NCBI GenBank assembly: GCA_028877265.1
Contig: JAPPGX010000191.1
Coordinates: 66,144-130,143 of the forward strand
DNA from: Acidobacteriota bacterium
GTDB lineage: Bacteria > Acidobacteriota > Vicinamibacteria > Marinacidobacterales > Marinacidobacteraceae
Length of the DNA: 64,000 bases
Direction: 5' to 3'
Shown here: one piece after another, positions 979 through 14,753 of the stretch
Layout of the letters: each line of letters opens with the position of its first letter
Position numbering within the stretch: position 1 is the stretch's first letter
Program-made: the position numbers and the translations under genes
The notes under the pieces: model-generated
Databases searched by the model: none
What the model was told of the DNA's origin: nothing
The model's input: only the letters and a program-made list of their open reading frames with translations

Positions 979-1419
979 TCAGGCCGCCTGACGGCGGAGC
1001 GCCCACCAGGTGACGATCGTCGAGGTGGCGAGGCTCAGCAGACCGCCGGTCAGGATGTCGATGGGAATGAGCGCCGCCGGCCAGTTGGCGATGGCGGCGA
1101 AGATGGGCACGCTGTAGGTGGCGTAGGCCGCGCAGCCCAGCACGAACGCGTTTTTCATCGCCCGCTGGAGGTTTCGCTCCCGGACTGCCGGTGCGATCGC
1201 CAGCTGGCTGTTCGCGAGCGAGATCAGCGCGAAGAACACCAGGAGGGCGACGATCTCGATGGCGCCCCAAGTGTCCATCGGCTTCCCGAAGCTCCAGTCG
1301 TTCCCGCTCGCCTCATGCAGACGCGCGTGCATCGCCACCGCCGGGGGCGACAGGCTCCAGGCCATGTCGATCACGGTGTAGACGACGAACGCGGAAAGGA
1401 AACGCGCGATCCTGCTCAT
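979..1419 (-). CDS. Small integral membrane protein, DUF2177-like
   Basis: I chose the internal ATG at 1419 (MSRIARFLSAFVVYTVIDMAWSL...) because GGAGG lies about 7 nt upstream. The protein has about four hydrophobic helices. The family assignment is from memory of DUF2177 N termini. Confidence 0.55.
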   Translation of the reverse strand: MSRIARFLSAFVVYTVIDMAWSLSPPAVAMHARLHEASGNDWSFGKPMDTWGAIEIVALLVFFALISLANSQLAIAPAVRERNLQRAMKNAFVLGCAAYATYSVPIFAAIANWPAALIPIDILTGGLLSLATSTIVTWWALRRQAA

Positions 1420-1446
1420 GTCACAACCTCCTGACCCAGGCTGCAC

Positions 1447-3162
1447 TCACCCGCCGCGCTTGATGACCACCCCCGCCAGCGCCCCGATGGACCGGCCGTC
1501 CTCGATCGCGACCTGGCCGTTGACCAGCACCCAGGGCATCCCGACCACCGGACCGTCGGGGTCCATGATGGTCGCGTTGTCCTCCACCCGGTCGTAGTCA
1601 AAGGCGACGACGTCGGCCTTGCAGCCGACCCGCAGGCAGCCGCGGTCCGTCATGCCCACGATGGCGGCCGGCAGACTCGTCGAAGAGCGGACCATGAAGG
1701 GCAGGGTGATGAGCCCGCGGTCCCGCGTGTAGTGGGCGATCTTGCGGGTGTAGCTCCCCCAGAAGCGGGGATGCCGCCCCGGGGTCGCTTCAAGCGCGAT
1801 GCCGGCATCCGTCGAGGTCGCCGTGTAGTCCTGCGCCATGTACATCTCCACATCGAACCGGTCCCCGGCGATCGGCCGGATCAGCACCCCGTGGAGCAGT
1901 TCGTCGTTTCCGGTGCGGGCGAAGTCGATCAGCGTCTCGGCGACGCTCCTGCCGCTGTCCGCCGCCACTGTGGCCACCGTCTTCCCGATCAGCGAGGGAT
2001 CCTCCGGGAAAAGGACGACGATCAGCCGGTCGGCGCCTCCGAACAGGTCGATCTGCTGCTCGAGGTCCATCATCAACTCGGCGCGGATGGCTTCGTCGGC
2101 GAGGTTCGCCTCCAGGTTTGCAAGGCTCAGCAGCCCCGGCGTCCGCCGCCACTTCGGGTCGTCGAGTCCACCGGAACGGTCCGTCCCCGGGGGCGCGAAA
2201 CCCCACACGGGGATCACCCCGACCGGTCCGCCGCCGAAGGTCTCGAAGGGGTACTGATCCAGGAAGACCTGGACCCCCTGCGCCCGCGCGAGGTTGATCG
2301 CCTGCACGTCCTTCGCGGAGTGCCCCCAGCTCGAGGGTCCCTTGGCCTTGATGTGGGTCCCGACGACCCGGATGCCGGTCTCGCGGCCAATCCGGATGGT
2401 CTCGGCCATGCCGTCGGTCCCGGTCAGGGTCGGCCCGTCCACGATGCTCGGCACCTGCCAGCGCGGCATCGGCGACTGGCTGCGCTGGTGCGAGTAGTAG
2501 AACCCGTCGTAGTCCGCGACCACGTGGGCGAGCGCGATGATCTCCTCGGTCTCCGAGAAGCGGGCCGGGCGGTATTCCGGGCCCGCCCCGAGGCCCCAGG
2601 CGCCGTCCTCCATTCCTTCCCGGACCAGCTCGGCCATCCGGGCGACTTCCTCGTCGGTCGCCGGCCGCTCGTGGTCGTCGCCCATCACTTGGAGACGGAC
2701 GGTCGAGTGGCCCACGACGGGCACCACGTTGAGTCCCACTCCTTGGCTCTCGTAGGCGGCGATCTCGTCGCGGATCGGCCAGATCGGGTTCCGGCCGTCA
2801 GCGCCCATCACCACCGTGGTGATCCCCTGGGCGACCAGGTTCAGCGCCTTCCTCTCCTCCATGTCGTCGCCGACGAGCGACCGGTCGGCGTGGGAGTGGA
2901 GGTCCACCCAGCCCGGGGACACATGGAGTCCACTCACGTCGATGGTGCGGGCCGCCTCGTGTCCCTCCTGCCCGGCGAGGCGTCCCACCGCCACGACCTC
3001 GTCGCCCCGAATGCCGACGTCCGCCCGGATGGCGGGGTTGCCGCTCCCGTCGAACACCATTCCTCCGACGAGCAGCAGGTCATAGGCGGGCTGGGCGAAC
3101 CCAGGCGCCGCCAGGAGGCTCGCGACCGCCGCAAACAGCGCACTTCCGAGGACTTTCTTCAT
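1447..3162 (-). CDS. N-acyl-D-amino-acid deacylase (D-aminoacylase) family amidohydrolase, secreted
   Basis: The ATG at 3162 is preceded by GGAGGA. A signal peptide MKKVLGSALFAAVASLLAAPGFAQ is present. Family blocks are 'LLLVGGMVFDGSGNP', 'DVGIRGDEVVAVG' and 'VSPGWVDLHSHAD', with a C-terminal 'ADVVAFD'. Confidence 0.8.
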   Translation of the reverse strand: MKKVLGSALFAAVASLLAAPGFAQPAYDLLLVGGMVFDGSGNPAIRADVGIRGDEVVAVGRLAGQEGHEAARTIDVSGLHVSPGWVDLHSHADRSLVGDDMEERKALNLVAQGITTVVMGADGRNPIWPIRDEIAAYESQGVGLNVVPVVGHSTVRLQVMGDDHERPATDEEVARMAELVREGMEDGAWGLGAGPEYRPARFSETEEIIALAHVVADYDGFYYSHQRSQSPMPRWQVPSIVDGPTLTGTDGMAETIRIGRETGIRVVGTHIKAKGPSSWGHSAKDVQAINLARAQGVQVFLDQYPFETFGGGPVGVIPVWGFAPPGTDRSGGLDDPKWRRTPGLLSLANLEANLADEAIRAELMMDLEQQIDLFGGADRLIVVLFPEDPSLIGKTVATVAADSGRSVAETLIDFARTGNDELLHGVLIRPIAGDRFDVEMYMAQDYTATSTDAGIALEATPGRHPRFWGSYTRKIAHYTRDRGLITLPFMVRSSTSLPAAIVGMTDRGCLRVGCKADVVAFDYDRVEDNATIMDPDGPVVGMPWVLVNGQVAIEDGRSIGALAGVVIKRGG

Positions 3163-3213
3163 GGCATTCCTCCGCTGGGGTGGGCCGGCCATCGTACCGG
3201 AGGGGACAGGCTG

Positions 3214-4581
3214 CTAAGCCCTGGCCCGCCGTGCCCCAACCCCGAGCGCCAACCCGGAAGCCAGGATCAGGGTTATCGCGGCCGGGAATCCGGCCCGGGC
3301 CGCGTTGCCGGCAGGTGCCGCAGGCTCGAAGCGGGGCACCTGGTCCCACTTCACCGCATCGATCGGCGCGGTGGCGAAGAAGTGCGGGAAGAAGTGGTCC
3401 TTGAGGCGTTCGTGGAAGCGGCGCACCGCGTCCTGGTAGTCGAGTTGGGCCGCAAGGTCGGTCCCGGCGAGGCGATCCAGCGCGAGCTGGGTAGCGAGGG
3501 GCGGGGCGAACAGGGACCACCTGCGAGCCCACGCATCCCTCTCGCGCAGCACCTCGCGGTAGGCCCGGGAGGCGTCGCGGGCGGCCTGGTCTCCCCGGTG
3601 ATTCATGGCGTAATACCAGCCCCACGTGAACACGTCCTCGGGAACGGCTTGGCCGCTCCACTCGGGGTAGTCCCGGTAGAACGACTCCATCGTCGCGCTG
3701 GGCGGCAGGTCCCAGGCCTCGTGGTATCCCTGGCGCTGCTGCACCGTCAGCTCCAGCGCTTCCGGAACGGGGTGAAGAACCGCGTTGGCGAGACTCAGGG
3801 CCGCCGGAGCCAGGATCGTGAGGACGACCCAGGTGCCCGCGAGGATCATGGCGTTGGCGGTCGATGACCGGTTTCCCATCGCGACTCCGAGGCAGAGGGC
3901 GAACCAGAAGATCGTGTGCAGCGCGACGAGCGCGAACATCCAGCCGGCCCGGCCGTCGAGGTCGATGCCGGCCATCAGCGCCCCGGCGGCCATCACCACC
4001 GCGGCGACCGCGCCGACGAGAATCGCGCGGGATGCGAGCTTCGCGGCCAGGAGCCTCCGGCGGGGTGCGAACAGGCGGACCAGGTTCCAGGTGCCGCCCT
4101 CCCGTTCGCCCGAGATCAGGTCGTAGCTGACCGCGATGATGAAGAGCGGCAGCAGCGCGATGAGGAGGAATGCAAGGTCCAGATAGCCGGCGGCGGCAAG
4201 CCGCGGGTTCACGGTCTCGTGCTCGTAGAGCTGCCCTTCGAGGGCCAGGAGACGGATCCGGAGGCTCTCCGTTTCCACCGCGGCCCGGCCCCGTGCCAGG
4301 GCGGAAACCGGCAGCGGGGGCTGCGGGGCGGGAAAGGCCACGTAGTAGAGCACCTCTCCCGCGTCGGTGGTCGGCGGATAGACCGAGAGGAGAAAGTCCA
4401 ACTGGTCGTCGTAGGCGGTCTCGGCCGCCGCCAACGAAGACCGGGCGACTTCCGCGTTCCGCCCGGCGCGCCACGCGCCGTAGATTCCCAGGACGAGCAG
4501 AAGGATGATCGCGGCCGCGGTCCCGGCCGACCGGGTCAGCCGCCGGAGGTCGAGCGCCAGCAGCCGCGCCCAGGCTCTCAC
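3214..4581 (-). CDS. ABC-2 type / DUF3526-like transporter permease
   Basis: The protein is multi-TM with a large periplasmic loop, and 'SGEREGGTWNL' resembles the ABC-2 permease E-x-E-x-GT block. The proposed GTG start at 4581 overlaps the upstream stop as GTGA. The ORF track allows earlier starts up to 4656. Confidence 0.65.
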   Translation of the reverse strand: MRAWARLLALDLRRLTRSAGTAAAIILLLVLGIYGAWRAGRNAEVARSSLAAAETAYDDQLDFLLSVYPPTTDAGEVLYYVAFPAPQPPLPVSALARGRAAVETESLRIRLLALEGQLYEHETVNPRLAAAGYLDLAFLLIALLPLFIIAVSYDLISGEREGGTWNLVRLFAPRRRLLAAKLASRAILVGAVAAVVMAAGALMAGIDLDGRAGWMFALVALHTIFWFALCLGVAMGNRSSTANAMILAGTWVVLTILAPAALSLANAVLHPVPEALELTVQQRQGYHEAWDLPPSATMESFYRDYPEWSGQAVPEDVFTWGWYYAMNHRGDQAARDASRAYREVLRERDAWARRWSLFAPPLATQLALDRLAGTDLAAQLDYQDAVRRFHERLKDHFFPHFFATAPIDAVKWDQVPRFEPAAPAGNAARAGFPAAITLILASGLALGVGARRARA

Positions 4582-6038
4582 GACGACCTCTCCGTTCCGA
4601 TCAGCGCCAGCCGTCTCCGCGCCAACCCGAGTCCGGTCAGCGGCAGGCCGATCCACAACCCGAGCGCGGCCAGGGAGACGGGACGGTCCGCCAGCGCTCC
4701 ACCGAGCGGCGGCGGCTCGGTCGCGAAGACGGGGAACTGCCCCCAGTGTTCGCGCGACAGCCGTTGCGCCCGGTCGTTCTCGTTCTGGATCTCGCGGATG
4801 TGGAGTTCGTTGAGACGCTGAATGATCGTGTAACGGTGCGCCTCGGCCTGGGCGAGGAACGCTTCCATCGCCTCCGGGCCGCTACCGGCGATGCCCATCG
4901 ACAGGTCCCGGGCCGCCAGGTACGGGGAGAGGAATCCCGACCATGCCATGACCCCGTTCTGGCGAAGATGACCCTTCACCAACTCCTGCCGGTGGTCCTC
5001 GAAGACCCGGCTGGTGAGTGCTTCCGATTCCCGGCTGAGCACCCCCCTCCAGTTCACCGGGAGGTCCTCGACGGCGCCGACCTGGTAGCGCTCCAGGTAC
5101 TCCTCCCGGAGCGCGTTGAAGAAGGGATCGTCCGGGCGGTGGCTATCCCCGACCTCGTTCAGCGCCTGCTCCACCTGAGCAGTGAGCTCGGCGCGCGAGG
5201 GAAGCGGATAGAGCGCTCCGGCGACGGAGGCCGCTACGCGGGGGGTGGCGACGCAGATCACCACCCACAGCGCGAGCAGTTGCGCGAGCGCGCTCCGCGA
5301 AGAGGTTCGGACGGCGGAAACGAGCACCGTGACGAGCACCCAGCCCGCGAGATAGATCCCGTAGATGCCGGCCAGGACGCCCAGCCGCGTGACGGAAGCG
5401 GGGCTGTCGAGCCCCGGCCCGGCCATGACGCCGACGGCCAGCGCGACCGGAAGCGTCGCCAGCGCCCCTACCGCTCCCGTGGCGAGAACCTTGCCCGCGA
5501 GGATCTGCGCCGGCGTCGCCCCCTGTGTCAGGAGGACGCCGAGCGTTCCCCCCTCTCGCTCGGCGCTGACCGCGGCGAAACCGGCGACAACCACCAGGAG
5601 CGGCAACAGGAGCGCGAGCACGCTCGCCGGGGTGAGGCGTCCGAAGCGCGTCATCCCGGTGGAATGACGCGCCTCGCCAAAGTTGGCCGTGTTCTGGCGA
5701 TGGCCTTCCAGGTAGATCGAGGTTCCCGCGTAATCGCTCACTCCGGGATCGACGAACTCGAGCGGCGCCTGTTCGCGAAAGACCAGGAACCCGTAGTGGA
5801 TGACCCGGTGCGGATGGCGTTCGGGCTGTTCCACCCACTGCCGATCGACCATCGCCTGGTAGCGGTCGCGCTGTTCGGTCGCGCCCGTGGCGTGATGCCG
5901 GGCGCCCACCACCGCGACCAGACCCAGGGCGATCACGAGCCCCAACAGGAACAGGACGGTGCCGTCCTGGCGAATCGCGCCCAACTGCCGTCGGGCGATG
6001 AGCAGGGTGTTGCGGAGGCCTTCCGGCGAGTTGCGCAT
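4578..6038 (-). CDS. ABC-2 type / DUF3526-like transporter permease
   Basis: The ATG at 6038 (MRNSPEGLRNTLLIARRQLG...) is preceded by GAGAGG. 'SAEREGGTLGVLLTQG' is an ABC-2 permease block. The protein is multi-TM and paralogous in architecture to the downstream gene. Confidence 0.7.
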   Translation of the reverse strand: MRNSPEGLRNTLLIARRQLGAIRQDGTVLFLLGLVIALGLVAVVGARHHATGATEQRDRYQAMVDRQWVEQPERHPHRVIHYGFLVFREQAPLEFVDPGVSDYAGTSIYLEGHRQNTANFGEARHSTGMTRFGRLTPASVLALLLPLLVVVAGFAAVSAEREGGTLGVLLTQGATPAQILAGKVLATGAVGALATLPVALAVGVMAGPGLDSPASVTRLGVLAGIYGIYLAGWVLVTVLVSAVRTSSRSALAQLLALWVVICVATPRVAASVAGALYPLPSRAELTAQVEQALNEVGDSHRPDDPFFNALREEYLERYQVGAVEDLPVNWRGVLSRESEALTSRVFEDHRQELVKGHLRQNGVMAWSGFLSPYLAARDLSMGIAGSGPEAMEAFLAQAEAHRYTIIQRLNELHIREIQNENDRAQRLSREHWGQFPVFATEPPPLGGALADRPVSLAALGLWIGLPLTGLGLARRRLALIGTERSS

Positions 6039-6417: not shown

Positions 6418-8862
6418 CTAGTGGAACCGCAGCGCGTAGCTCAGCCGGAACCCGCGACCCATCTCGGGGGCCCGGTCCTTGATGTACGACGTGTGGTTGC
6501 GATAGAGCTCGTTCGTCAGGTTGTAGCCCGAGAACGACAGGATGTGGGACAGGTGCTGCCGCGGCCAGACGTACGAGCCGCGCACGTTGACGACGGCATA
6601 GCCGTCGGTTTCGGTCTCGCCGCGGAACCCGTCGGTCTGCCGTCCCGCAAACTCCACCTGCGGGCTCAGCGTGAACCCGCCGTAGAGGATGTCGAGTTTC
6701 ACCGAGCCTCGGAGCGGCGGAATCCGCGGCAGCGCTTCATCGTTCGCTGTCAGCCGCGCGTCCACGTAGCCGATCCCGAGGGTCAACCAGGTCCGTCCGA
6801 CGAGCCGGGCGCCGGCCTCGGCGTCGAATCCGGCGAAGCGGCTGTCGCCCTGCAGGATGTCGAACACCGGCAGGTTGTCGATGACCGCATCCCTGCGGCT
6901 GCCGAAGATGAAGTTGTCGATCTCGTACGTGAAGAAGTTCAGGTCGCCACGGGTGCGGACCCCCCGGTGCCGCAGGCTCACGTCCAGTCCGATGGTGGAC
7001 TCGGCGTCGAGGTCCGGGTTGCCGATGTCGAACGAGAACGTGCCGGCGTGGGCGCCGAAGTTGTACAGCTCCTCGATGGCCGGGGCGCGGTGGGAGCGCG
7101 TCAGGTTGGCCACCAGCGCGTTTCCGGCGCCGAGATCCGCGTGGACTCCGACCGACGCCGACAGACCCGCGAAGCTGCGGTCGCGCACGTCGGGCGCCTC
7201 GGGCCGAGGCTCTTCCTCCTCGTGCCCGTGCTCCTCGTGTCCATGCTCCTCGTGCCCATGTTCCTCGTGCCCGTGCTCCTCTTCGTGCCCGTGCTCCTCT
7301 TCGTGCCCGGCTCCACTGCTCCGCGCCGCCACGGCGTAGTCATCGCGGTCGATCCGGGCGCCGAACTGCACTCGAAACCGCCCGAAGGTCAGTTCTTCGT
7401 AGGCGAAGGCCGCGAAGGAGCTCAGGTCGGTCCGCGGCGCCAGCGCCTCGGCTCCGGCCGCCTCGAAGTCCCGCACCTGCGCCCAGGCGCCGAATCTCCC
7501 CGACAGACGCTCCGTCTGCCGCTGGTCCACGTCGGCCCGGAAGATGTAGACCTGGTTGTCGTAGCGCGTGCCCACGCGCTCCTGCCCGGCCTCGGTCTCC
7601 AGCTCGTCATGTCCCCAGTCCACGACGCTCAGGCTGAGCCGTCCTCCCTCGATGACGCTGTTGTCGAGGTCCCTCACCCCGAAGTCGAAGCGCCCGGCGC
7701 GACGCTGCCAGTCGAGTTCGATATCGGTCGTGCCATGCATTTCCTCCTCGTGCTCGCCTTCGTGCTCGTCATGATGTTCGTCTTCGTGTCCGCCGTGCTC
7801 GTCTCCGTGGTCATCGTGGTGCACGTGGAACTCGCCGACGATCGGAACTCCATAGCGGCCGTCGTTCACCGTCACGCCGGCGCTGGTGAAGAACCGTTCG
7901 CCGGTCCAGCCGAGCCCGGCCTGCGCATGGGTCGCCTCGGTCGCGGAATTCTCGACGACCCCCGCGGGCGTGTCGTAGTCCTCCGTCCGCCGCGTGCTGC
8001 CGGAGGCCCAGTAGTGGACTCCGTTCTGCTGTGCGTGCTGCACGCTGACGTTCCCGCCCGCCTGCGCGTTCGGACTCCCCACGTCGGCGCTCAACTGCGC
8101 CCGCGTGCCTTCCGTCGGCGACGCCCGGTAGCTCTCCTGGGGCGTGATCACGTTGACGAGCCCGCCGACCGCGTTGGAGCCGTATAGCAATGTCGCCGGC
8201 CCGCGGACGATCTCGACGCGTTCCACGCCGTTGGGGTCGATGGCGACGCCATGGTCGCCGGACTCGCTCGACAGGTCTCCGGTGCGGACGCCGTCCTCCA
8301 GGATCATGACCCGGTCGCCGTCGAAGCCGCGGATGATCGGCCGGTTCGCTCCGGGACCGAAGCCGCGCACCGCAATGCCGGGCTCGTTCCGCAGGGCGTC
8401 GGCGAGATTCGTGGCCGACTCCTTGGCGATATCGAACGAGTCCATGGTGGTGACCGCGTTGAATGCCTCGAGCGCGGTCTCGGTGCCGTCCACCGAGGCG
8501 GTCACTGTCACGTCCTCGCGAACGGGTGAGAGACTGAGTTCGAAGTCCACCGTCGCCGTCCCGCCCGGAAGGACGGTGACCGTCTGCCGTCCCGCGGTGA
8601 GGAGCTCGCGTTGCGCGAGGACGTCGTAGGAGCCGGCCGGCACGCCGGCGATCGCGAACCTTCCCTGTCCGTCGGTCAACGCGAATTTGCCCGTGCCCAC
8701 GAAGAGGACGACCGCGCCGTGAACGGGGCCGTACTCCTCAAGAGTCACGGTGCCGCGAACCGCGCCGGTCTCCTGCGCCGCCACCGGCGCAGTCCCGAAG
8801 GCCGCCAGCAGGCCGGCTGCCAGGAAACAAGTCAGAAAAGAAGTGAATTTGGATCGGTACAT
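6418..8862 (-). CDS. TonB-dependent outer-membrane receptor with an N-terminal CarboxypepD_reg domain and two His/Glu-rich insertions
   Basis: A signal peptide is followed by 'GAVRGTVTLEE...GAVVLFVGTG...TDGQGRFAIAGVPAGSYDV', a carboxypeptidase-regulatory fold. The plug region reads 'IVRGPATLLYGSNAVGGLVNVIT'. The C terminus ends in the aromatic 'LSYALRFH'. GGGAGGA lies upstream of the ATG at 8862. Confidence 0.85.
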   Translation of the reverse strand: MYRSKFTSFLTCFLAAGLLAAFGTAPVAAQETGAVRGTVTLEEYGPVHGAVVLFVGTGKFALTDGQGRFAIAGVPAGSYDVLAQRELLTAGRQTVTVLPGGTATVDFELSLSPVREDVTVTASVDGTETALEAFNAVTTMDSFDIAKESATNLADALRNEPGIAVRGFGPGANRPIIRGFDGDRVMILEDGVRTGDLSSESGDHGVAIDPNGVERVEIVRGPATLLYGSNAVGGLVNVITPQESYRASPTEGTRAQLSADVGSPNAQAGGNVSVQHAQQNGVHYWASGSTRRTEDYDTPAGVVENSATEATHAQAGLGWTGERFFTSAGVTVNDGRYGVPIVGEFHVHHDDHGDEHGGHEDEHHDEHEGEHEEEMHGTTDIELDWQRRAGRFDFGVRDLDNSVIEGGRLSLSVVDWGHDELETEAGQERVGTRYDNQVYIFRADVDQRQTERLSGRFGAWAQVRDFEAAGAEALAPRTDLSSFAAFAYEELTFGRFRVQFGARIDRDDYAVAARSSGAGHEEEHGHEEEHGHEEHGHEEHGHEEHGHEEEEPRPEAPDVRDRSFAGLSASVGVHADLGAGNALVANLTRSHRAPAIEELYNFGAHAGTFSFDIGNPDLDAESTIGLDVSLRHRGVRTRGDLNFFTYEIDNFIFGSRRDAVIDNLPVFDILQGDSRFAGFDAEAGARLVGRTWLTLGIGYVDARLTANDEALPRIPPLRGSVKLDILYGGFTLSPQVEFAGRQTDGFRGETETDGYAVVNVRGSYVWPRQHLSHILSFSGYNLTNELYRNHTSYIKDRAPEMGRGFRLSYALRFH
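7210..7305 (-). repeat. In-frame tandem repeat inside the TonB receptor: four 15-nt units plus two 18-nt units encoding (HGHEE)4(HGHEEE)2
   Basis: The plus strand reads ctcctcgtgcccgtg / ctcctcgtgtccatg / ctcctcgtgcccatg / ttcctcgtgcccgtg / ctcctcttcgtgcccgtg / ctcctcttcgtgcccgg. The translated tract is GAGHEEEHGHEEEHGHEEHGHEEHGHEEHGHEEEE. Confidence 0.9.
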
Positions 8863-9067
8863 GGTTTGTCCTCCCGATTGCCTGCCCTCGGCAAGACGGT
8901 TCCGGCAGATGCCGTGCGTACCGCGGCGAACCTCGTTCTGAGGGCGTCCCGAACGGGGTCGGGGAACGCGGTGGCCGCGGGGGGACGCGCCCGGTCAGGC
9001 GACCGCTGGCGCGCGCCGGCCCGACGCCCGCCGCTTGGCGGCGGACGAGCACGGCGTGTTCTCGGAA

Positions 9068-9370
9068 CTACGCGGGAGGAGCGCGGGCGGGCTGGCGAAG
9101 GTAGAGCCGGGATCGGACCCGGACGACCTCGCGCGCTCGTTCAGGCGGATCCGCAGCATCGGCGAAGCCGATCTGCAACGAGCCGGAGAGCTCGGTGGCG
9201 GGCTGGTGTGGAGTCTGGCAGACCGCGCAGTGCTCATCGACGGAGTGCTCTTCGTGACAGAAGACCTCCGCCGCGGCGGCACCGGCCACCACCAACACCA
9301 GGAGAGCGATCCAGGCGCTCCAGCCAAGGCTGCGCCGGGCGAGCCTCGGGTGCGCGGTTCCTCGTCGCAT
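9068..9370 (-). CDS. Candidate small membrane-anchored Cys/His-motif protein (hypothetical, DUF2946-like in appearance)
   Basis: This 100-aa ORF has one N-terminal TM/signal anchor (WSAWIALLVLVVAGAAAA) followed by 'CHEEHSVDEHCAVCQTPH'. It lies upstream of, and on the same strand as, the His-rich TonB receptor. I did not check for an RBS, and the C-terminal half is low complexity. Confidence 0.35.
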   Translation of the reverse strand: MRRGTAHPRLARRSLGWSAWIALLVLVVAGAAAAEVFCHEEHSVDEHCAVCQTPHQPATELSGSLQIGFADAADPPERAREVVRVRSRLYLRQPARAPPA

Positions 9371-9572
9371 TGCTGTCGAATCGAACGGGCCAGTATACGG
9401 GCGACGAGTGTTTGCCGTAAGCCTCGTTTCGCCTCCGTCCCTGGATCATCGGTCTTCCACGTCCGGCCAAGACGCCACGCAGAACGCCTCGCAAAGGCGC
9501 AATTCGGCCGGGATCCATCTCCCGTCGGGCGCCGCCTGGGTTCTTGCCACGGGCTGCTAACGTCCACTCAAC

Positions 9573-12500
9573 ATGCTGGACCGACTCTCCGCCTGTCTCA
9601 CATTGCATCTGGTTTCCGGGTTTCTGGTGATTCCCTCGGGAGCGGCAATCGCGCAGCCCGTCCCGGTGGACTCCTCGCAGCTTGGCGGTCTCCAGTGGCG
9701 CACCATCGGGCCCGACGGGAACCGGCTGAGCGCCGCCGCTGGCGAGTGGGGCAACCCCGATGTCATCTACTTCGGCGCCGCGTCCGGGGGGATCTGGAAG
9801 ACCAGCGACCGGGGCGTCGCCTGGGAGCCGGTCTTCGACGACCAGGAGGCGGCTTCGATCAGCGCGCTCGCCGTTTCACCGTCCCATCCCGGCCAGGTGT
9901 GGGCCGGGACCGGCGAGACCTTCATCATCCGGCCGGCGCTCGCGATGGGGAACGGCATCTACCGTTCCACCGACGGCGGGCGGTCCTTCCATCACCGGGG
10001 CCTCGAGGCAACCGGGCGCATCGCCCGCATCCTGGTCCATCCCGAGGACCCGGACCTCGTCTACGCCTGCGCCCTGGGCCACTCCTATGCGCCGCAGCCG
10101 GAGCGCGGGGTCTATCGGACGCGGGACGGAGGCGCGAACTGGGACCTGGTGCTCCATGTGGACGAAGACACCGGTTGTTCCGACCTGGCGATGGACCTCC
10201 GCCATCCCGAGCGGCTGCTGGCCGGGATGTGGCAGCTCCAGATCGACACCGGCGGGCTCCGGAGCGGGGGGCCGGGCAGCGGGCTCTACCGCTCGCGCGA
10301 CGGGGGCGACTCCTGGGAACGAATTTCGGGCGCGAAGTCCGATTCCGCCGGAGGCCGGGGCCTGCCCGGCGGCGAAGACCATCCCATCGGCAAGGTCGCC
10401 GTGGGGATCGCCCCGAGCGACCCCGACCGCTGGTACGCCCTGATCGAGGACGAGAGTCCGGGCTTCTACCGCTCCGACGACGGCGGCGATTCCTGGCGCC
10501 TCATGATGACCCACCACGATCTCGCCGAACGGGCGCCCTACTACGTCCGGATCGCCGTGGATTCCGCGGACGCCAACCGCGTCTATTTCGCCTCGGTGCT
10601 CTTCAGTACCACCGTGGACGGCGGCCGCACGTTGATCGAGACCTCCTACCGCGCCGGCGGCGACAACCACGACGTCTGGGTGGATCCCTGGATGCCGGAG
10701 CGCATCCTGGTCGGGCACGACGGGGGCGGCAGCATCTCCGAGAACCGCGGCGCGAGCTGGCGCCGGGTCGTACCGCCGGTGGCCCAGATGTACCACGTCA
10801 CCGTGGACGACCGGATCCCCTACCGCGTCTACGGGAACCGCCAGGACGGCTACTCCTACCGGGGCCCCAGCCGGACCCCCGGCGGCGGAATCCCGCTCGG
10901 ACTCTGGGAGGGGGTCGGGGGCTGCGAGAGCGGCTGGGCTACCCCCGAACCCCACGACGACAACGTGGTCTGGTCGGGGTGTTACGACGGCGGGCTCGAG
11001 ATCTACGACGACCGCACGGGACACGTCCGTGACATCCGGGTCTGGCCGGAGGCGGGCTACGGCTGGGCGCCCGCGGACCTGAAGGTGCGCTGGCACTGGA
11101 ACTTCCCGATGGTCCTGTCGCGCCACGAACCGGGGACCACCTGGGTCGGCAGCCAGTTCGTGCACAAGAGCACGAACCGGGGCCAGTCGTGGGAGACCAT
11201 CAGCCCCGACCTGACCACGAACGACAAGTCGCGCCAGCAGGACTCCGGCGGCATCACCGTCGACAACCTCTACACCTTCGACGGCTCGGTGCTCTTCGCG
11301 CTCGCCGAGTCACCGGTCCAGGCGGGCCAGCTCTGGGCCGGAAGCGTGGACGGGAAGGTCCACGTCACCACCGACGGCGGGGAGACCTGGCTCGACCGCA
11401 GCGGGAACGTGCCGGAGCTCGACCAGGACGCCTGGATCAAGTTCATCGAGCCCTCGCACCACGATCCGGAGACCGCCTACCTGGCGGTGAGCTGGCACCA
11501 GTCGGGCGACTTCCGGCCGCACGTCTACCGCACCCGGAATCTCGGGGAGAGCTGGGAGCGCATCAGCGGCGGAATCCCCGAGTCCCCGTTCTCGTTCGTC
11601 CACGTGGTGCGGGAGGACCCGGGCCGCGCCGGCATCCTCTTCGCCGGCACCGACAACAAGGTCTGGGCCAGCCTCGACGACGGCGAATCCTGGTTCTCCC
11701 TCCAGCTCGACATGCCGCCGGCGCCCATCTACGGGATGGTCATCCAGGAACGCTTCCAGGACCTGGTGGTCGCGACCTACGGCCGCGGCTTCTACATCCT
11801 GGACGGTATCGGTCCGCTTCGGGATCTCGCCGAGGCGTCGAACGATCCGCTCCGGGTCTTCGATTCGCCGACCGCGTGGCGGTTCCTGCCGCGGCAGAGC
11901 ATCAAGTCGGAGCCGGGCAGCCTGGTGACCGGCCGGAACGCTCCCTATGGCGCTCCCATCTCCTGGTGGCTCGACGAGGATGCAGCTTCCGATCGGGCCG
12001 AAATCGCGATCGTGAACGCCGCAGGGGAGACCGTGCGAACGCTTCGCGGTCCCGGAGCCGCCGGGCTTTCACGGGTGTACTGGGACCTCCGCGGTGATAC
12101 CCCCGACCGGGCCACCCTCCGGACCCGGCCTCCCGACCGGGACTGGGTGGAAATGGGCGAGGACGGGCAGCGCCGGATCCGCACGTGGGACCTCGACATC
12201 TTCCCCGGTTACCGCGGTCTGCTTCAGCCACCCGGGTCCTACACTGCGCGGGTCACGGTGGGGGAGCACGCCGCGGAGACCACCCTGCGGGTGGAGGTCG
12301 ATCCCGCATCCGCCGCCACCCCCGACGACATCGGGGAGAAGTACGCGTTCCTGAACGCCATCCACGACCAGTTGAACGAACTGGCGGAGATGGTGGACGA
12401 GCTGGAGTGGGTGCGCCGCGAGATCGAGGGGCTCCGGGAGCGCCACGCCGGCGACGAGCGGTTCACCGCGCTGCTCGAAAGTGCGGGTGAGATCGCCGGC

Positions 12501-12791
12501 ACCGCGATCGCCATCGAGGGAAGGTTCTTCGACGTGGGGCTCACCGGAGCCCGCGAGGACGCTTTCCGGGCGCCGATGCGGCTCTACGGCCGCCTTGGCG
12601 CGCTCGCGAACGACGCCGGCTGGGACGGCGCCGACTTCGCGCCCACCGACCAGCAGCGCGAAGTCCACCGGGTTCTCACGGAGCGGTTCGAAACGGCCCG
12701 CGGGGAATACCGCCGGTTGATGGACGAACAGCTTCCGCCATTCTGGCGGGCGCTCGCCGAGGCGCGCGCAGGAGACGGCGGTCCGGATTAA
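9573..12791 (+). CDS. Secreted VPS10/sortilin-like BNR (Asp-box) repeat protein, the type often annotated as a glycosyl hydrolase
   Basis: The protein is 1072 aa with a signal-like N terminus. It carries repeated Asp-box motifs: 'WKTSDRGVAW', 'YRSTDGGRSF', 'YRTRDGGANW', 'YRSRDGGDSW', 'YRSDDGGDSW', 'TTDGGETW' and 'SLDDGESW'. Confidence 0.8.
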   Translation: MLDRLSACLTLHLVSGFLVIPSGAAIAQPVPVDSSQLGGLQWRTIGPDGNRLSAAAGEWGNPDVIYFGAASGGIWKTSDRGVAWEPVFDDQEAASISALAVSPSHPGQVWAGTGETFIIRPALAMGNGIYRSTDGGRSFHHRGLEATGRIARILVHPEDPDLVYACALGHSYAPQPERGVYRTRDGGANWDLVLHVDEDTGCSDLAMDLRHPERLLAGMWQLQIDTGGLRSGGPGSGLYRSRDGGDSWERISGAKSDSAGGRGLPGGEDHPIGKVAVGIAPSDPDRWYALIEDESPGFYRSDDGGDSWRLMMTHHDLAERAPYYVRIAVDSADANRVYFASVLFSTTVDGGRTLIETSYRAGGDNHDVWVDPWMPERILVGHDGGGSISENRGASWRRVVPPVAQMYHVTVDDRIPYRVYGNRQDGYSYRGPSRTPGGGIPLGLWEGVGGCESGWATPEPHDDNVVWSGCYDGGLEIYDDRTGHVRDIRVWPEAGYGWAPADLKVRWHWNFPMVLSRHEPGTTWVGSQFVHKSTNRGQSWETISPDLTTNDKSRQQDSGGITVDNLYTFDGSVLFALAESPVQAGQLWAGSVDGKVHVTTDGGETWLDRSGNVPELDQDAWIKFIEPSHHDPETAYLAVSWHQSGDFRPHVYRTRNLGESWERISGGIPESPFSFVHVVREDPGRAGILFAGTDNKVWASLDDGESWFSLQLDMPPAPIYGMVIQERFQDLVVATYGRGFYILDGIGPLRDLAEASNDPLRVFDSPTAWRFLPRQSIKSEPGSLVTGRNAPYGAPISWWLDEDAASDRAEIAIVNAAGETVRTLRGPGAAGLSRVYWDLRGDTPDRATLRTRPPDRDWVEMGEDGQRRIRTWDLDIFPGYRGLLQPPGSYTARVTVGEHAAETTLRVEVDPASAATPDDIGEKYAFLNAIHDQLNELAEMVDELEWVRREIEGLRERHAGDERFTALLESAGEIAGTAIAIEGRFFDVGLTGAREDAFRAPMRLYGRLGALANDAGWDGADFAPTDQQREVHRVLTERFETARGEYRRLMDEQLPPFWRALAEARAGDGGPD

Positions 12792-14518
12792 TGAGCGAAG
12801 AGCGCTCCCGTTTCGGATCCCGGAATCTCCTGGCGGGGGTCGCGCTGGCTGCCTACGGCTGGTTCGCCGCCGCCTACGGGCCCGACGGCTCGTTCCCCGG
12901 ATCGGACTTCGGTTCGCTCGCCTACGGACTCTCCCGGCAGGGCCTCTGGTTTCTTCCCATCGGGATCCTCATCCCGCTGGTGCTGCCCCGGATGCGAGGC
13001 GTCCTCACCGGTTTCTTCCTGGTTCTGTTTCCGTCGCTGTTGATCGGAGCCGTAATGACCGCGCTCGTGGTCGCGGCTCCGGACGCCGCTCCCTGGTTGG
13101 TGCTGGAGAGCTTCGACTTTCCGGAAGTGGCAACGCTGCTCGCGCCGTTGACCGGAATGTTCGTCGGCGCGCTGTTCGGCGCCGTCATCGCGCGGGGGCC
13201 CGGCTCGGCGCTGGTCCTCATTCCGGTGCTGGTCGCCATCGCCGCGGTCCTCCTCGCGAGCGTCGCCGTGCTGCTCCTGCTGATCACCGACCGGGTTGCG
13301 GTGACGGATCCCATCGGGCCTCCCGGGTCTCCGGACGGCCAGTACCGCGACGCCTTCGCCGACTTCTATCGGGACGGAGCGCCCGGCTCGCAGGCGGCGC
13401 TGAACGCGGCCACCTTCGCCGCCGGCTTTCGCCTGGCGCTTGCCGCCGTGGGCGTGGACCCGGGCGTGCGGCTCCACGCGGCCCCGGCCGGCGATGCGAT
13501 GGAAATCGCCGGCTCGATGCCGATTGCCCTTCCCGCGTTCGGCGGGCGTTTCCTGAACATCGCGGCGACCGCGGCGCCGACCGTCGAGGACGGCGAGTTC
13601 CGGGCCGCGTTCCGGTCCGTCCGGGTTGGAGGCATCGAGGCGCCGGCCGTGCTCGTCCGGTCCTCGTCCCGGATCCTCTCACGCTGGCTGCGCGGGAACA
13701 CTGCGGTGGCGGCGCTGCTGGCGCCCTTCGATGAGGTCCGGGTTGCGGACTCGACGATCGTGGTGCGCTGGCGGGAGAGGGAGGACACGGGTGCGGGAGT
13801 CCATTCGCGGGTGGGCGGTTACCTGACGCTGCTCGTCCGGGACGCCGATCTTCTCCGGGAGCAACCGGACCGGACCTCCGCGGTGCTCAGGCGCACGTTC
13901 GCGCTCGCCGCCGTCCGTTCGGTGGGGGGCGACCCGCTGGCCGAGAACCGGGCCGCCCTGCTCGCCCTCGGGGGGGCGTTCGGACATCCCTCGCTGCTCG
14001 ACCTGGCGCGCGTGCCCGGTGGAGGGGAGGAAGCGCGAGGACTCCTGGACCGCCTGCCGCTCAGTCTGCACGGGCGTCGCGACTGGGCGCGCCATTTCTT
14101 CCTGAGCGCCGGCATGGTGCAGGTGGCGCCCGACGGCGTTTCGGGCGGGGCCGGGCTCTTGAAGGAACAACTCGACGCCGCGGAGGGCGGGACCGGGTTT
14201 TCCTTTGCCGACCTGTTGATGGACGAGGCGGGGACCCGCTTCGGGCTCACCGCGACCGGCGATGTGGCGCGGGCGCGCTGGATGCAGGTGCGGCTCGCCA
14301 ACGGCGTCCGGGAAGACGACCTCGCGCCGACCGATGCCGGGTTGCCCGAAGGGCTCAGCGCCGCGCGGCTGGAAGCCGAATTCGGCGGGGTGGGGGGCGA
14401 GGGCTTCCGGGACGTCGAGGCGGAGATCGTGCGCCTGGTGGACGCCCTGCCGCTCTACCGGATGCAGATTCCGGGGGCGCCGGCCGGCATCGCTCCTCCT
14501 TCGGGTACCCTGCCTTAG
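12791..14518 (+). CDS. Hypothetical membrane protein with about 5-6 N-terminal TM helices and a roughly 400-aa soluble domain
   Basis: The ATG at 12791 overlaps the upstream TAA as TAATG. The N-terminal third is hydrophobic. The C-terminal block 'HGRRDWARHFFLSAGM...GGTGFSFADLLMDEAGTRFG' was not assignable by eye. Confidence 0.6.
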   Translation: MSEERSRFGSRNLLAGVALAAYGWFAAAYGPDGSFPGSDFGSLAYGLSRQGLWFLPIGILIPLVLPRMRGVLTGFFLVLFPSLLIGAVMTALVVAAPDAAPWLVLESFDFPEVATLLAPLTGMFVGALFGAVIARGPGSALVLIPVLVAIAAVLLASVAVLLLLITDRVAVTDPIGPPGSPDGQYRDAFADFYRDGAPGSQAALNAATFAAGFRLALAAVGVDPGVRLHAAPAGDAMEIAGSMPIALPAFGGRFLNIAATAAPTVEDGEFRAAFRSVRVGGIEAPAVLVRSSSRILSRWLRGNTAVAALLAPFDEVRVADSTIVVRWREREDTGAGVHSRVGGYLTLLVRDADLLREQPDRTSAVLRRTFALAAVRSVGGDPLAENRAALLALGGAFGHPSLLDLARVPGGGEEARGLLDRLPLSLHGRRDWARHFFLSAGMVQVAPDGVSGGAGLLKEQLDAAEGGTGFSFADLLMDEAGTRFGLTATGDVARARWMQVRLANGVREDDLAPTDAGLPEGLSAARLEAEFGGVGGEGFRDVEAEIVRLVDALPLYRMQIPGAPAGIAPPSGTLP

Positions 14519-14701
14519 CAGCCTGTGGACAAAGTCACGCGGCATTCGAACGCCGATGCATCCCGCCTGAACCGCGCCTCTACGAGGCGCTCTGCGTTGC
14601 GTTTCGGTCGGAATACACTCGGTATTCCTCCCTCACGCGCCTGGTCAGCCGGGCGCCTCGGCGTTCTCGGTACTCACGTCACTTCATCCACAGGCTGCTA
14701 A
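14515..14701. repeat. A 187-bp element bounded by 15-bp perfect inverted repeats (21 bp with 2 mismatches) with internal hairpins
   Basis: TTAGCAGCCTGTGGA at 14515-14529 is the reverse complement of TCCACAGGCTGCTAA at 14687-14701. Internal hairpins are gcgcctc-tac-gaggcgc (14574-14590) and ggaatac-actcg-gtattcc (14610-14628). Confidence 0.8.
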
Positions 14702-14753
14702 ACGCCATGAGGCTGATCGATCGAGCGCACCTCCCGGGAGACCGGGACCGCTG

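What the first reader, a model, noticed from the sequence alone, without database searches (positions are those of the whole stretch)
6418..8862. TonB-dependent receptor with two long His/Glu/Asp-rich insertions, a probable metal-capturing (Zn/Ni/Co-type) receptor
Seen: two insertions lie in the barrel region.
- 'FHVHHDDHGDEHGGHEDEHHDEHEGEHEEEMHG' is encoded at about 7735-7830.
- 'GAGHEEEHGHEEEHGHEEHGHEEHGHEEHGHEEEE' is encoded at about 7210-7305.

Together they carry 23 His residues.

Established: His-rich extracellular loops occur in zinc-piracy receptors such as ZnuD, and His/acidic clusters are typical divalent-metal ligands.

Inference: this receptor binds free or weakly chelated divalent metal at the cell surface. 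An unusual CarboxypepD_reg N-terminal domain is also present. I saw no Zur or Fur box upstream.
Basis: partly seen in the sequence, partly recalled or inferred. Interest (0 to 1): 0.55.

Follow-up and report, generated by a model that had tools for sequence, protein, structure and literature searches.

The report
ZnuD-like metal receptor with leader peptide

Summary
Window 6418-8862, minus strand, encodes an 814-aa TonB-dependent receptor. It has two His/Glu/Asp tracts, aa 345-377 and 517-551, with 11 His each (22 in total, not 23).

The closest known protein by sequence, profile and fold is the zinc receptor ZnuD. All four ligands of ZnuD's buried zinc site align to D203, H204, E420 and H605, and these columns are almost invariant in 84 relatives. 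Both tracts fall in extracellular loops (L3 and L6), at the positions of ZnuD's surface-exposed loops. The tracts vary in length: L6 ranges from 6 to 65 aa across the family, and tract 2 is a 15-nt tandem repeat. They look like accessory capture antennae rather than the core site.

Upstream (9370-9068) is a 100-aa ORF with the hallmarks of the arrest peptide CruR: a membrane anchor, CxxC, a 44-aa spacer and RAPP just before the stop. It is followed by a C-rich 205-nt spacer. A matching ORF precedes 50 of 75 related receptors. Downstream are two permeases 39% identical to the Zur-regulated ZnuH and ZnuI of Caulobacter.

Zinc is the most likely substrate. Copper is not excluded.

The parts
6418..8862 (-). 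TonB-dependent receptor gene, 814 aa, ZnuD-like
   Evidence: ORF. Pfam Plug, barrel and CarboxypepD_reg. Best NCBIfam, PDB and fold match is ZnuD.
8533..8760 (-). N-terminal CarboxypepD_reg domain (aa 35-110), which ZnuD lacks
   Evidence: Pfam PF13620, 3e-11. Present in all 120 best homologues.
8497..8517 (-). TonB box EDVTVTA (aa 116-122)
   Evidence: Read from the sequence. E116, T119, V120, T121 and A122 are invariant in 49 sequences.
8251..8256 (-). Codons for D203-H204 at the plug apex, aligned to ZnuD zinc ligands D99-H100
   Evidence: Alignment to 4rdr with chain offset +14. D or E in 82 of 84 relatives and H in 83 of 84.
7726..7848 (-). Extracellular loop L3 (aa 339-379), containing His/Asp/Glu tract 1 (7732-7830)
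   Evidence: AF2 strand map. Aligns with ZnuD L3 cluster 1. Indels among close relatives fall here.
7603..7605 (-). Codon for E420, aligned to ZnuD zinc ligand E340
   Evidence: E in 83 of 84 relatives.
7177..7329 (-). Extracellular loop L6 (aa 512-562), containing His/Glu tract 2 (7210-7314)
   Evidence: AF2 strand map. Lies at the position of ZnuD residues 431-478, which include the surface epitope 430-459. Loop length is 6-65 aa across the family.
7214..7309 (-). 15-nt coding tandem repeat, 5.9 copies, encoding (HGHEE)n within tract 2
   Evidence: TRF. Repeat-unit indels occur in relatives 83-98% identical.
7048..7050 (-). Codon for H605, aligned to ZnuD zinc ligand H499
   Evidence: H in 83 of 84 relatives.
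9068..9370 (-). Upstream ORF, 100 aa, CruR-like arrest/sensor peptide: membrane anchor, C38-H39-x2-H42-x4-H47-C48-x2-C51 (CHEEHSVDEHCAVC), a 44-aa spacer, and R96-A-P-P99 one residue before the stop
   Evidence: Weak DUF2946 hit. Conserved in 50 of 75 related loci with a 43-44 aa spacer. Background control.
9218..9229 (-). CxxC codons of the upstream ORF (aa 48-51)
   Evidence: Invariant in 48 of 48 distinct upstream ORFs.
9074..9085 (-). RAPP arrest motif of the upstream ORF (aa 96-99)
   Evidence: RAPP in 30 and RGPP in 18 of 48 upstream ORFs, 1-6 residues before the stop. The motif's function is described in PMC9426467 and PMC12992588.
8863..9067 (-). 205-nt C-rich intergenic spacer between the upstream ORF and the receptor; candidate Rho-utilisation region
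   Evidence: C exceeds G by up to 20 points from about 9240 to 8926. No hairpin terminator. No Rfam family.
4578..6038 (-). ABC-2/DUF3526 permease, orthologue of Caulobacter ZnuH
   Evidence: Pfam. 39% identity to C. vibrioides ZnuH, E 2e-88.
3214..4656 (-). Second ABC-2/DUF3526 permease, orthologue of Caulobacter ZnuI; longest ORF shown, and the true start is probably about 20 codons further in
   Evidence: Pfam. 39% identity to ZnuI, E 1e-79. The L027 gene call is 461 aa.
1447..3192 (-). Exported amidohydrolase-family metallohydrolase, same orientation; whether it belongs to the unit is uncertain
   Evidence: Pfam and NCBIfam. The same position is occupied in the 87%-identical locus L027.

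Best explanation

Proposed mechanism:
- Two flexible, strongly acidic, His-rich extracellular loops (L3 and L6) act as low-affinity capture antennae.
- They pass the ion to a buried four-ligand site made of D203 and H204 at the plug apex, E420 on strand 7, and H605 in the loop after strand 13.
- TonB, engaged through the EDVTVTA box, then remodels the plug and releases the ion into the periplasm.

The antennae are evolutionarily labile. They expand and contract by repeat slippage and are absent in many relatives, so they tune capture rather than define function.

Expression is probably controlled after transcription starts by the 100-aa upstream ORF. When the metal is scarce, the ribosome stalls on RAPP and shields the C-rich spacer from Rho, so the receptor is transcribed. 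When the metal is plentiful, it binds the nascent His-flanked CxxC motif, stalling is relieved, and Rho terminates before the receptor gene.

In this lineage two ZnuH/ZnuI-like ABC-2 permeases are co-transcribed.

What is shown here: the domain architecture, loop topology, ligand conservation, upstream-ORF hallmarks and their conservation, and permease orthology. What is inferred: the identity of the metal, the capture role of the loops, and the stalling/Rho mechanism.
For: ZnuD is the best hit in every comparison:
- NCBIfam: 224 bits for ZnuD, against 53 bits for the copper-receptor model.
- PDB by sequence: 2.9e-32.
- PDB by family profile: 4.2e-49.
- Foldseek: 1.4e-26.

ZnuD's zinc ligands D99, H100, E340 and H499 (PMC4557270) align to D203, H204, E420 and H605. 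These are invariant in 49 close homologues and present in 82-83 of 84 relatives down to 38% identity.

Tract 1 aligns to ZnuD's cadmium-binding cluster 1. Both tracts sit in extracellular loops.

The mature protein has no Cys and only 4 Met, so it has hard or borderline ligands only.

His content of L3 and L6 co-varies across the family (Spearman 0.58), and so does the Asp-versus-Glu flavour (0.66, n=19).

The upstream ORF has CxxC, a 44-aa spacer and RAPP; Bordetella CruR has a 45-aa spacer (PMC9426467). Such an ORF is present upstream of 50 of 75 relatives. Of 54 motif matches among 8061 six-frame segments, 50 are these upstream ORFs. A C>G bubble spans the ORF's 3' half and the spacer.

The permeases are 39% identical to ZnuH and ZnuI. 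The znuGHI promoter binds Zur and is induced by zinc depletion (PMC4176598).
Against: No metal binding or transport was measured, and the assignment of zinc rests on homology.

The only characterised CruR responds to copper and barely to zinc. CruR-headed operons described so far are copper-related.

The score against the curated ZnuD model is far below its cutoff (224 against 950 bits) and identity to ZnuD is about 20%.

No Zur box was found.

The ZnuG-type ATPase is missing from the whole 64-kb window. The permease pair accompanies only 4 of 84 family loci.

Many relatives have no His in L3 (25 of 84) or only a 6-aa L6 (27 of 84), so the tracts are not needed for the basic function.

The AF2 model is mediocre (mean pLDDT 58.8, plug below 40). 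Topology therefore rests on the strand map and on homology, not on coordinates.
Confidence: 0.55

Rival explanations
1. It is a copper (Cu2+) uptake receptor. The CruR-like upstream ORF senses copper as in Bordetella, and the His/carboxylate loops and the D/H/E/H site bind Cu(II) rather than Zn(II).
For: The upstream ORF has all the CruR hallmarks. The only characterised CruR is copper-specific. CruR-headed operons are enriched in copper genes. His and carboxylate ligands suit Cu(II). One relative (L001) has PepSY_TM and MerC genes nearby. OprC is the second-best structural match.
Against: The receptor belongs to neither known copper receptor family. It scores 53 bits against a cutoff of 472 for the OprC model. 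It has no CxxxM-HxM site and no methionine track. The published CrtA family is described as separate from all receptors of known structure, ZnuD included. The buried ligand set is exactly ZnuD's zinc set. The downstream permeases match a zinc-regulated system. The upstream ORFs here carry extra conserved His around the CxxC; the paper's description of the DUF2946 logo does not mention conserved His.
Confidence: 0.25
2. It is a nickel/cobalt receptor or a broad-spectrum divalent-cation receptor, as the first reader also allowed.
For: Long His-rich tracts bind Ni2+ and Co2+ well (general coordination chemistry). A related locus (L002) has a neighbouring receptor-CobN-ExbB cluster that is also headed by a CruR-like upstream ORF.
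Against: No Ni/Co-specific gene, riboswitch or regulator is found near the gene. No characterised Ni/Co receptor appears among the sequence or fold matches.
Confidence: 0.08
3. The two tracts are neutral low-complexity expansions produced by replication slippage in tolerant surface loops. They may serve surface variation but have no role in metal capture. The receptor works through its buried site alone.
For: Tract 2 is a 15-nt tandem repeat. All indels among relatives 83-98% identical lie in the two tracts. L6 ranges from 6 to 65 aa, and 25 of 84 relatives have no His in L3.
Against: Wherever the loops expand, the expansions use metal-ligand residues (His with Asp or Glu), and L3 is acidic across the whole family. 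His content and Asp/Glu flavour of the two separate loops co-vary. ZnuD's equivalent cluster binds metal in the crystal. The correlations are not corrected for phylogeny.
Confidence: 0.12
4. It is a haem or haemoprotein receptor that clamps haem iron between the plug-apex His and the His that lies between FRAP-like and NPNL-like boxes.
For: Haem-receptor models are the next NCBIfam hits (164 and 155 bits). ShuA, ChuA and PhuR are among the PDB matches. H605 lies between HRAP and NPDL, which resemble the FRAP/NPNL boxes of haem receptors (sequence; the box names are from my own knowledge).
Against: Both haem models score far below their cutoffs (about 320 bits). The extra carboxylate ligands D203 and E420 are conserved; in ZnuD they make a pocket sized for a single ion, and ZnuD does not bind haem. 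His-rich acidic loops and a metal-sensing upstream ORF have no counterpart in haem systems.
Confidence: 0.03

Closest known systems
ZnuD (Neisseria meningitidis zinc receptor; PDB 4RDR/4RDT/4RVW; NCBIfam NF038289)
   Same: Plug plus 22-strand barrel. Best sequence, profile and fold match. All four buried zinc ligands are conserved. A His/Asp/Glu cluster sits in L3 at the aligned position. A second surface-exposed loop lies where tract 2 sits.
   Different: About 20% identity, and 224 bits against a cutoff of 950. It has an extra N-terminal CarboxypepD_reg domain. L3 lacks ZnuD's Cys pair and helix and is a continuous His/acidic tract. It has a second long His/Glu tract in L6. No Zur box is present; a CruR-like upstream ORF takes its place. 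The host is an environmental Acidobacteriota lineage, not a mucosal pathogen.
CruR (Bordetella pertussis Bp2923, DUF2946), the copper-responsive upstream ORF ahead of the receptor CrtA/BfrG
   Same: A small exported or anchored peptide encoded first in the operon. Invariant CxxC. RAPP near the C-terminus. A fixed spacer (44 aa here, 45 in CruR). A long C-rich spacer before a TonB-dependent receptor gene.
   Different: Below the Pfam threshold (18.6 against 23.7 bits). Found in Acidobacteriota, a phylum not among those listed for CruR homologues. The CxxC is flanked by conserved His and Asp. The downstream receptor is ZnuD-like, not CrtA or OprC. No PepSY_TM gene follows it in the window. The metal sensed is unknown.
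Caulobacter crescentus znuK / znuGHI locus (Zur regulon)
   Same: A TonB-dependent receptor sits next to two ABC-2/DUF3526 permeases, in the same H-then-I order, each 39% identical to the window's pair.
   Different: The receptor is not a ZnuK orthologue: a ZnuK-like receptor matches only over the plug, at 27% identity. The ZnuG ATPase gene is absent from the window. There is no Zur box. The permease pair accompanies only a few members of this receptor family.
OprC / NosA (ionic copper receptor)
   Same: A metallophore-independent metal-ion receptor with the buried site at a similar depth and a surface track of low-affinity ligands. It is the second-best structural match.
   Different: OprC uses a CxxxM-HxM site and a methionine track for Cu(I). 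This protein has no Cys and 4 Met in its mature part, and uses His and carboxylates.

Membership tests
TonB-dependent transporter superfamily | N-terminal plug plus C-terminal beta-barrel domains | tested here: met
   Pfam Plug 3.5e-25 and barrel 8.4e-29. The AF2 model has 22 strands.
TonB-dependent transporter superfamily | TonB box ahead of the plug | tested here: met
   EDVTVTA at aa 116-122, invariant in 49 homologues. The consensus is recalled from my own knowledge.
ZnuD (NF038289) | Score at or above the curated NCBIfam cutoff (950 bits) | tested here: not met
   224 bits. It is the best family, but far below the cutoff of this narrow model.
ZnuD (functional/structural type) | Buried zinc site Asp99, His100, Glu340, His499 | tested here: met
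   Aligned to D203, H204, E420 and H605. The chain offset of +14 was verified with cluster 1 numbering. Conserved in 82-83 of 84 relatives.
ZnuD (functional/structural type) | His/Asp/Glu-rich clusters in extracellular loop 3 | tested here: met
   Tract 1 aligns with 241-HSHEYDDCHAD-251 and lies between strands 5 and 6.
ZnuD (functional/structural type) | Repression by Zur through a Zur box in the promoter | tested here: inconclusive
   No match to proteobacterial Zur consensus sequences in the window or in 80 loci. The Zur motif of Acidobacteriota is unknown.
ZnuD (functional/structural type) | Binds and imports Zn2+ | not testable with these tools
   Needs biochemistry or genetics.
CruR / DUF2946 upstream regulatory ORF | Pfam PF11162 gathering score (23.7 bits) | tested here: not met
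   18.6 bits, E 0.0034 for the window ORF. 20 of 41 family members hit at E<=0.1, best 1.7e-4.
CruR / DUF2946 upstream regulatory ORF | Invariant CXXC motif | tested here: met
   C48-A-V-C51, invariant in 48 of 48 distinct upstream ORFs.
CruR / DUF2946 upstream regulatory ORF | RAPP-type arrest motif a few residues before the stop | tested here: met
   RAPP at aa 96-99 of 100. In the family, RAPP occurs 30 times and RGPP 18 times, 1-6 residues before the stop.
CruR / DUF2946 upstream regulatory ORF | Fixed spacing of about 45 residues (within 1-2) between CXXC and RAPP | tested here: met
   44 residues in the window. Across the family it is 44 in 39 ORFs and 43 in 9. The published value is 45.
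CruR / DUF2946 upstream regulatory ORF | N-terminal export signal or membrane anchor | tested here: met
   Judged by inspection only: an Arg-rich N-terminus followed by WSAWIALLVLVVAGAAAA. No predictor was run.
CruR / DUF2946 upstream regulatory ORF | First gene of the operon, followed by a long C>G intergenic region and then a receptor gene | tested here: met
   205-nt spacer, family median 125 nt. C exceeds G by up to 20 points.
CruR / DUF2946 upstream regulatory ORF | Metal-relieved ribosome stalling and Rho-dependent termination | not testable with these tools
   Needs toeprinting, reporter fusions and bicyclomycin.
OprC/NosA copper receptor (TIGR01778) | CxxxM-HxM copper site and methionine track; model cutoff 472 bits | tested here: not met
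   52.8 bits. The only Cys is in the signal peptide, and the Met residues are at 140, 186, 375 and 801. The site is defined in PMC8610252.
CrtA (BfrG) copper receptor family | Conserved site Y130, W265, E337, Q356, H358, R395; usually followed by a PepSY_TM gene | not tested
   No CrtA sequence was available for alignment. No PepSY_TM gene follows the receptor in the window. The published CrtA cluster is said to be separate from the clusters of all solved receptors.
Caulobacter ZnuGHI-type ABC-2 system | Two DUF3526 permeases orthologous to ZnuH and ZnuI | tested here: met
   39% identity each, E 2e-88 and 1e-79. ZnuH and ZnuI carry DUF3526.
Caulobacter ZnuGHI-type ABC-2 system | Adjacent ZnuG ATPase gene | tested here: not met
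   No ABC ATPase was found anywhere in the 64-kb window by tblastn at E<=1e-3. It is present in the related loci L002 and L039.
Haem/haemoglobin receptors (TIGR01785/TIGR01786) | Score at or above the curated cutoffs (about 317-324 bits) | tested here: not met
   155 and 164 bits.

The most novel reading that the evidence does not exclude
The upstream ORF may be a zinc-responsive relative of CruR. It would be a nascent-chain metal sensor in which the invariant CxxC is joined by conserved flanking His and Asp (H-x2-H-x2-D-x-D-C-x2-C-x-L-x-H), giving a Cys2His2-like zinc site. It would control a ZnuD-type zinc receptor by arrest-peptide and Rho attenuation in place of Zur. That would extend metal-sensing arrest peptides beyond copper and into Acidobacteriota. 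It would also describe a large, unannotated class of receptor leaders, found upstream of 50 of 75 relatives sampled here. The mirror reading is that ZnuD-like receptors with an intact D/H/E/H site actually import copper in these bacteria. That reading is equally unexcluded and would also be new.
Probability: 0.3. Interest if true: 0.7.

Novelty: new variant of a known kind. Interest (0 to 1): 0.45.

Why it matters
Almost all knowledge of metal-ion uptake across the outer membrane without a metallophore comes from a few pathogens (ZnuD, OprC, CrtA).

This locus shows that a large environmental family, with thousands of homologues in metagenomes, keeps ZnuD's exact zinc-ligand set. The family also freely grows and loses His-rich capture loops, which makes it a natural experiment on what such loops contribute.

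It also links two topics that have been studied apart. A ZnuD-type receptor is here preceded by a CruR-type arrest peptide rather than a Zur box. If the peptide senses zinc, arrest-peptide metal sensing is more general than copper. If it senses copper, the substrate assumed for ZnuD-like receptors needs revisiting. Either answer can be tested directly with reporter fusions and in-vitro translation.

Tried and rejected
- **Zur and Fur boxes.** I scanned 260 nt upstream of the upstream ORF or receptor in the window and 80 loci with proteobacterial consensus sequences and for AT-rich palindromes. Nothing recurred.
- **Promoter and terminator scan of 8800-9700.** No sites were found. By eye, TTACGG-17 nt-TATACT lies about 20 nt before the upstream ORF's ATG, but this is untested.
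- **Rfam on the leader.** Only noise. The spacer folds with z = -1.84, which is not remarkable.
- **Orthology to Caulobacter ZnuK.** Rejected: a ZnuK-like receptor from Phenylobacterium matches only over the plug (27% identity, 3e-07).
- **A ZnuG-type ATPase in the window.** None found.
- **Conserved neighbours across 84 loci.** Nothing beyond the upstream ORF recurs. The best recurrent neighbour is a DsbA/thioredoxin-like gene in 6 loci.
- **Zur-box 19-mer scan of genomes.** Its main use was to fetch the Caulobacter locus. Other hits carried no ZnuHI genes.
- **AF2 with 49 close homologues.** Only the barrel was usable (pLDDT about 75); the plug was below 40. No coordinates were available, so ligand distances could not be measured.
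- **Literature.** No paper in the library mentions DUF3526.


Full report
**1. The observation**

The ORF at 6418-8862 is real, but it lies on the minus strand. It has 814 codons and an ATG start, with GGGAGGA seven bases upstream.

- Tract 1 is aa 345-377, window 7732-7830.
- Tract 2 is aa 517-551, window 7210-7314.

Each holds 11 His, so the total is 22 rather than 23. Outside the tracts His makes up 1.9% of residues. The chance of 11 or more His in 33 residues at that rate is about 1e-11.

Pfam finds a CarboxypepD_reg domain (35-110), a Plug (134-234) and a TonB-dependent barrel (403-782). EDVTVTA at 116-122 is a TonB box and is invariant in homologues. The CarboxypepD_reg domain is present in all 120 best homologues, so it is normal for this lineage and not unusual. 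The nearest named relatives are Acidobacteriota MAG proteins.

**2. What the receptor is**

ZnuD is the best match by every method:

| Method | Result |
|---|---|
| NCBIfam | ZnuD 224 bits; haem models 155-164; copper model 53 |
| PDB, sequence search | ZnuD 4rdr, 2.9e-32; next hits about 1e-16 |
| PDB, profile of 49 homologues | ZnuD 4.2e-49 |
| Foldseek with the AF2 model | ZnuD 1.4e-26; OprC next |

The ZnuD structure paper names Asp99, His100, Glu340 and His499 as the buried high-affinity zinc site (PMC4557270). The PDB chain numbering is offset by +14 from the paper's numbering. I checked this against the paper's own "241-HSHEYDDCHAD-251". With that offset the four ligands align to D203, H204, E420 and H605.

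These four positions are invariant in 49 homologues of 61-88% identity. In 84 receptors down to 38% identity they read D or E in 82, H in 83, E in 83 and H in 83. The score is far below the curated ZnuD cutoff of 950 bits. I therefore call the protein ZnuD-like, not ZnuD.

**3. Topology of the tracts**

The AF2 model has a mean pLDDT of 58.8. The barrel is at about 75, and the plug and both tracts are below 50. It gives 22 barrel strands joined by periplasmic turns of 2-7 residues.

Tract 1 lies between strands 5 and 6, which is L3. Tract 2 lies between strands 11 and 12, which is L6. The parity can be checked independently of the count from the N-terminus:
- E420 is near the top of strand 7 and H605 is in the loop after strand 13. 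Both are homologues of ligands on the extracellular side.
- Four strands separate E420 from tract 2, and two strands separate tract 2 from H605.
- Both numbers are even, so tract 2 is on the extracellular side.

Tract 1 aligns with ZnuD's L3 cluster 1, which holds two cadmium sites in the crystal. Tract 2 occupies the stretch equivalent to ZnuD residues 431-478, which includes the surface epitope 430-459. The ZnuD paper calls the His499 loop "loop 6". By my strand count that loop is the one after L6. Either way it is extracellular.

**4. The tracts are labile accessories**

Tract 2 is a 15-nt tandem repeat of 5.9 copies at 7214-7309. Among proteins 83-98% identical to the query, every indel lies in one of the two tracts, often as whole repeat units.

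Across 84 relatives:
- L3 is always acidic, but its His count runs from 0 to 11, and 25 relatives have none.
- L6 runs from a 6-residue turn (27 loci) to 65 residues with 16 His.
- His richness of the two loops co-varies (Spearman 0.58).
- Where both loops are rich, their Asp-versus-Glu flavour also co-varies (0.66, n=19).

These correlations are not corrected for phylogeny. The pattern fits capture antennae under shared selection, as proposed for ZnuD's clusters and in parallel with OprC's methionine track for Cu(I). It also shows that the conserved core is the buried site.

**5.

A 710-nt gap separates the receptor from a divergent Sortilin/BNR gene. In that gap, on the receptor's strand, is a 100-aa ORF at 9370-9068:

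MRRGTAHPRLARRSLGWSAWIALLVLVVAGAAAAEVFCHEEHSVDEHCAVCQTPHQPATELSG...RQPARAPPA-stop.

It scores weakly against Pfam DUF2946 (E 0.0034, below threshold). DUF2946 is the family of CruR from Bordetella pertussis. CruR is an upstream ORF whose nascent peptide senses copper through CXXC. Copper relieves a ribosome stall on a C-terminal RAPP and so allows Rho-dependent termination before the receptor gene. Its CXXC-to-RAPP spacing is 45 residues and is conserved to within 1-2 residues (PMC9426467). RAPP and RGPP are the strongest known arrest cores and are enriched in small ORFs upstream of TonB-receptor genes (PMC12992588).

The window ORF shows every hallmark:
- an Arg-rich N-terminus followed by a hydrophobic anchor;
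- CxxC at aa 48-51;
- a 44-residue spacer;
- RAPP at aa 96-99, one residue before the stop;
- a 205-nt spacer in which C exceeds G by up to 20 points, starting in the ORF's 3' half.

**6. Conservation of the upstream ORF**

I fetched 80 related loci from metagenomes and added three loci found by protein look-up. Of the 75 loci with at least 400 nt upstream, 50 carry an ORF matching CxxC, 43-44 aa, R[AG]PP, 1-6 aa, stop. In each case it sits immediately upstream on the receptor's strand.

As a control, I counted the motif in all six frames of all loci (836 kb, 8061 segments). It occurs 54 times. Fifty of these are the upstream ORFs. One of the other four (L002) lies just upstream of a second receptor gene; the remaining three were not examined.

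The spacer sequence is not conserved (21% mean column identity), but its length is fixed: 44 aa in 39 ORFs and 43 in 9. Half of the members hit DUF2946 weakly, with a best E of 1.7e-4. Public copies of these ORFs are unannotated hypothetical proteins with no Pfam domain.

The published CruR survey lists Proteobacteria and a few Planctomycetes, Firmicutes and Deinococcus. The receptors it describes downstream are of the OprC and CrtA types.

The ORFs here have a feature that the description of the DUF2946 logo does not mention: conserved His and Asp around the CxxC. The consensus is H-x2-H-x2-D-x-D-C-x-[VIL]-C-x-L-x-H-x-P, with a median of 3 His within 25 residues.

**7.

Two ABC-2/DUF3526 permease genes (6038-4578 and 4656-3214) and an exported amidohydrolase (3192-1447) follow on the same strand.

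I used the published Zur-box 19-mer of Caulobacter znuK/znuGHI to fetch the Caulobacter vibrioides locus. The two permeases are 39% identical to ZnuH (2e-88) and ZnuI (1e-79), in the same order. ZnuH and ZnuI also carry DUF3526.

In Caulobacter, znuGHI is bound by Zur, derepressed 12- to 38-fold in a zur mutant, and induced by zinc depletion.

Three limits apply:
- The ZnuG-type ATPase is absent from the whole window, although it is present in related loci L002 and L039.
- The receptor is not a ZnuK orthologue.
- Only 4 of 84 family loci have the permease pair.

Beyond the upstream ORF, the neighbourhood of the family is not conserved.

**8. Which metal**

For zinc:
- the exact ZnuD ligand set is conserved;
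- His and carboxylate loops resemble those of ZnuD and ZnuA;
- the ZnuHI-like genes are co-oriented with the receptor;
- the mature protein has no Cys and no Met track (0 Cys, 4 Met);
- the upstream ORF has a Cys2His2-like surround.

For copper:
- the only characterised CruR is copper-specific, with little response to zinc;
- CruR operons are copper-related;
- Cu(II) also favours His and carboxylate ligands.

Nickel and cobalt have no specific support. Haem is unlikely, because D203 and E420 fill the pocket as in ZnuD, which does not bind haem. No Zur or Fur box and no known riboswitch is present, so the upstream ORF is the only candidate regulator seen.

My estimates are: zinc about 0.55, copper about 0.25, and other or broad specificity for the rest.

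**9. Verdict**

The interpretation, a surface metal-capturing receptor of ZnuD type, is supported.

The receptor itself is a variant of a known kind. The more interesting result is the pairing of a ZnuD-like receptor with a CruR-type arrest peptide across a large environmental family. This raises a directly testable question about which metal the peptide senses.

Noticed in passing
window 9068-9370 (-), and the spacer 8863-9067: A conserved 100-aa upstream ORF with CxxC, a 44-aa spacer and RAPP before the stop (CruR-like arrest peptide), followed by a C-rich spacer ahead of the receptor. Public copies are annotated only as hypothetical proteins.
   Followed up: yes
window 3214-6038 (-): Two DUF3526/ABC-2 permeases orthologous to the Zur-regulated ZnuH and ZnuI of Caulobacter. 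No ABC ATPase gene is found anywhere in the 64-kb window, and the same ATPase-less layout occurs in the 87%-identical locus L027.
   Followed up: partly
L002 5809-9101 (-): In a related genome, a second CxxC-44-RGPP upstream ORF (8823-9101) heads a different CarboxypepD_reg receptor, followed by a 1598-aa CobN-like chelatase and ExbB. It is divergent from the ZnuD-like unit, so two uORF-led receptor operons sit back to back.
   Followed up: partly
window 9573-15857 (+): A divergent gene string encodes a 1072-aa Sortilin/BNR protein, a 575-aa protein with no family, and a VIT1-family (iron/manganese transporter-like) protein at 14754-15857. The same string flanks the receptor in L027.
   Followed up: no
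L087/L088 and four other loci, e.g. L088 6545-7930 (+): A DsbA/Thioredoxin_4-like gene follows the receptor on the same strand in 6 of 84 loci. It is the only recurrent downstream neighbour in the wider family.
   Followed up: partly
L3 and L6 of family members, e.g. L001, L052, L056, L034, L039: Within a lineage the two separate loops use the same repeat flavour: HDDD-type in some and HEEE-type in others. The L6 of L001 reaches 65 aa with 16 His.
   Followed up: partly
window 1447-3192 (-): An exported amidohydrolase-superfamily metallohydrolase is co-oriented directly after the permeases. It is conserved at the same position in L027, and an amidohydrolase also lies downstream in L001.
   Followed up: no
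window 84-920 (+) and 979-1446 (-): The C-terminal part of a sigma-54-type activator (AAA lid plus Fis-type HTH) lies at the window's start, next to a DUF2177 membrane protein. A DUF2177 gene also lies near the locus in L027.
   Followed up: no
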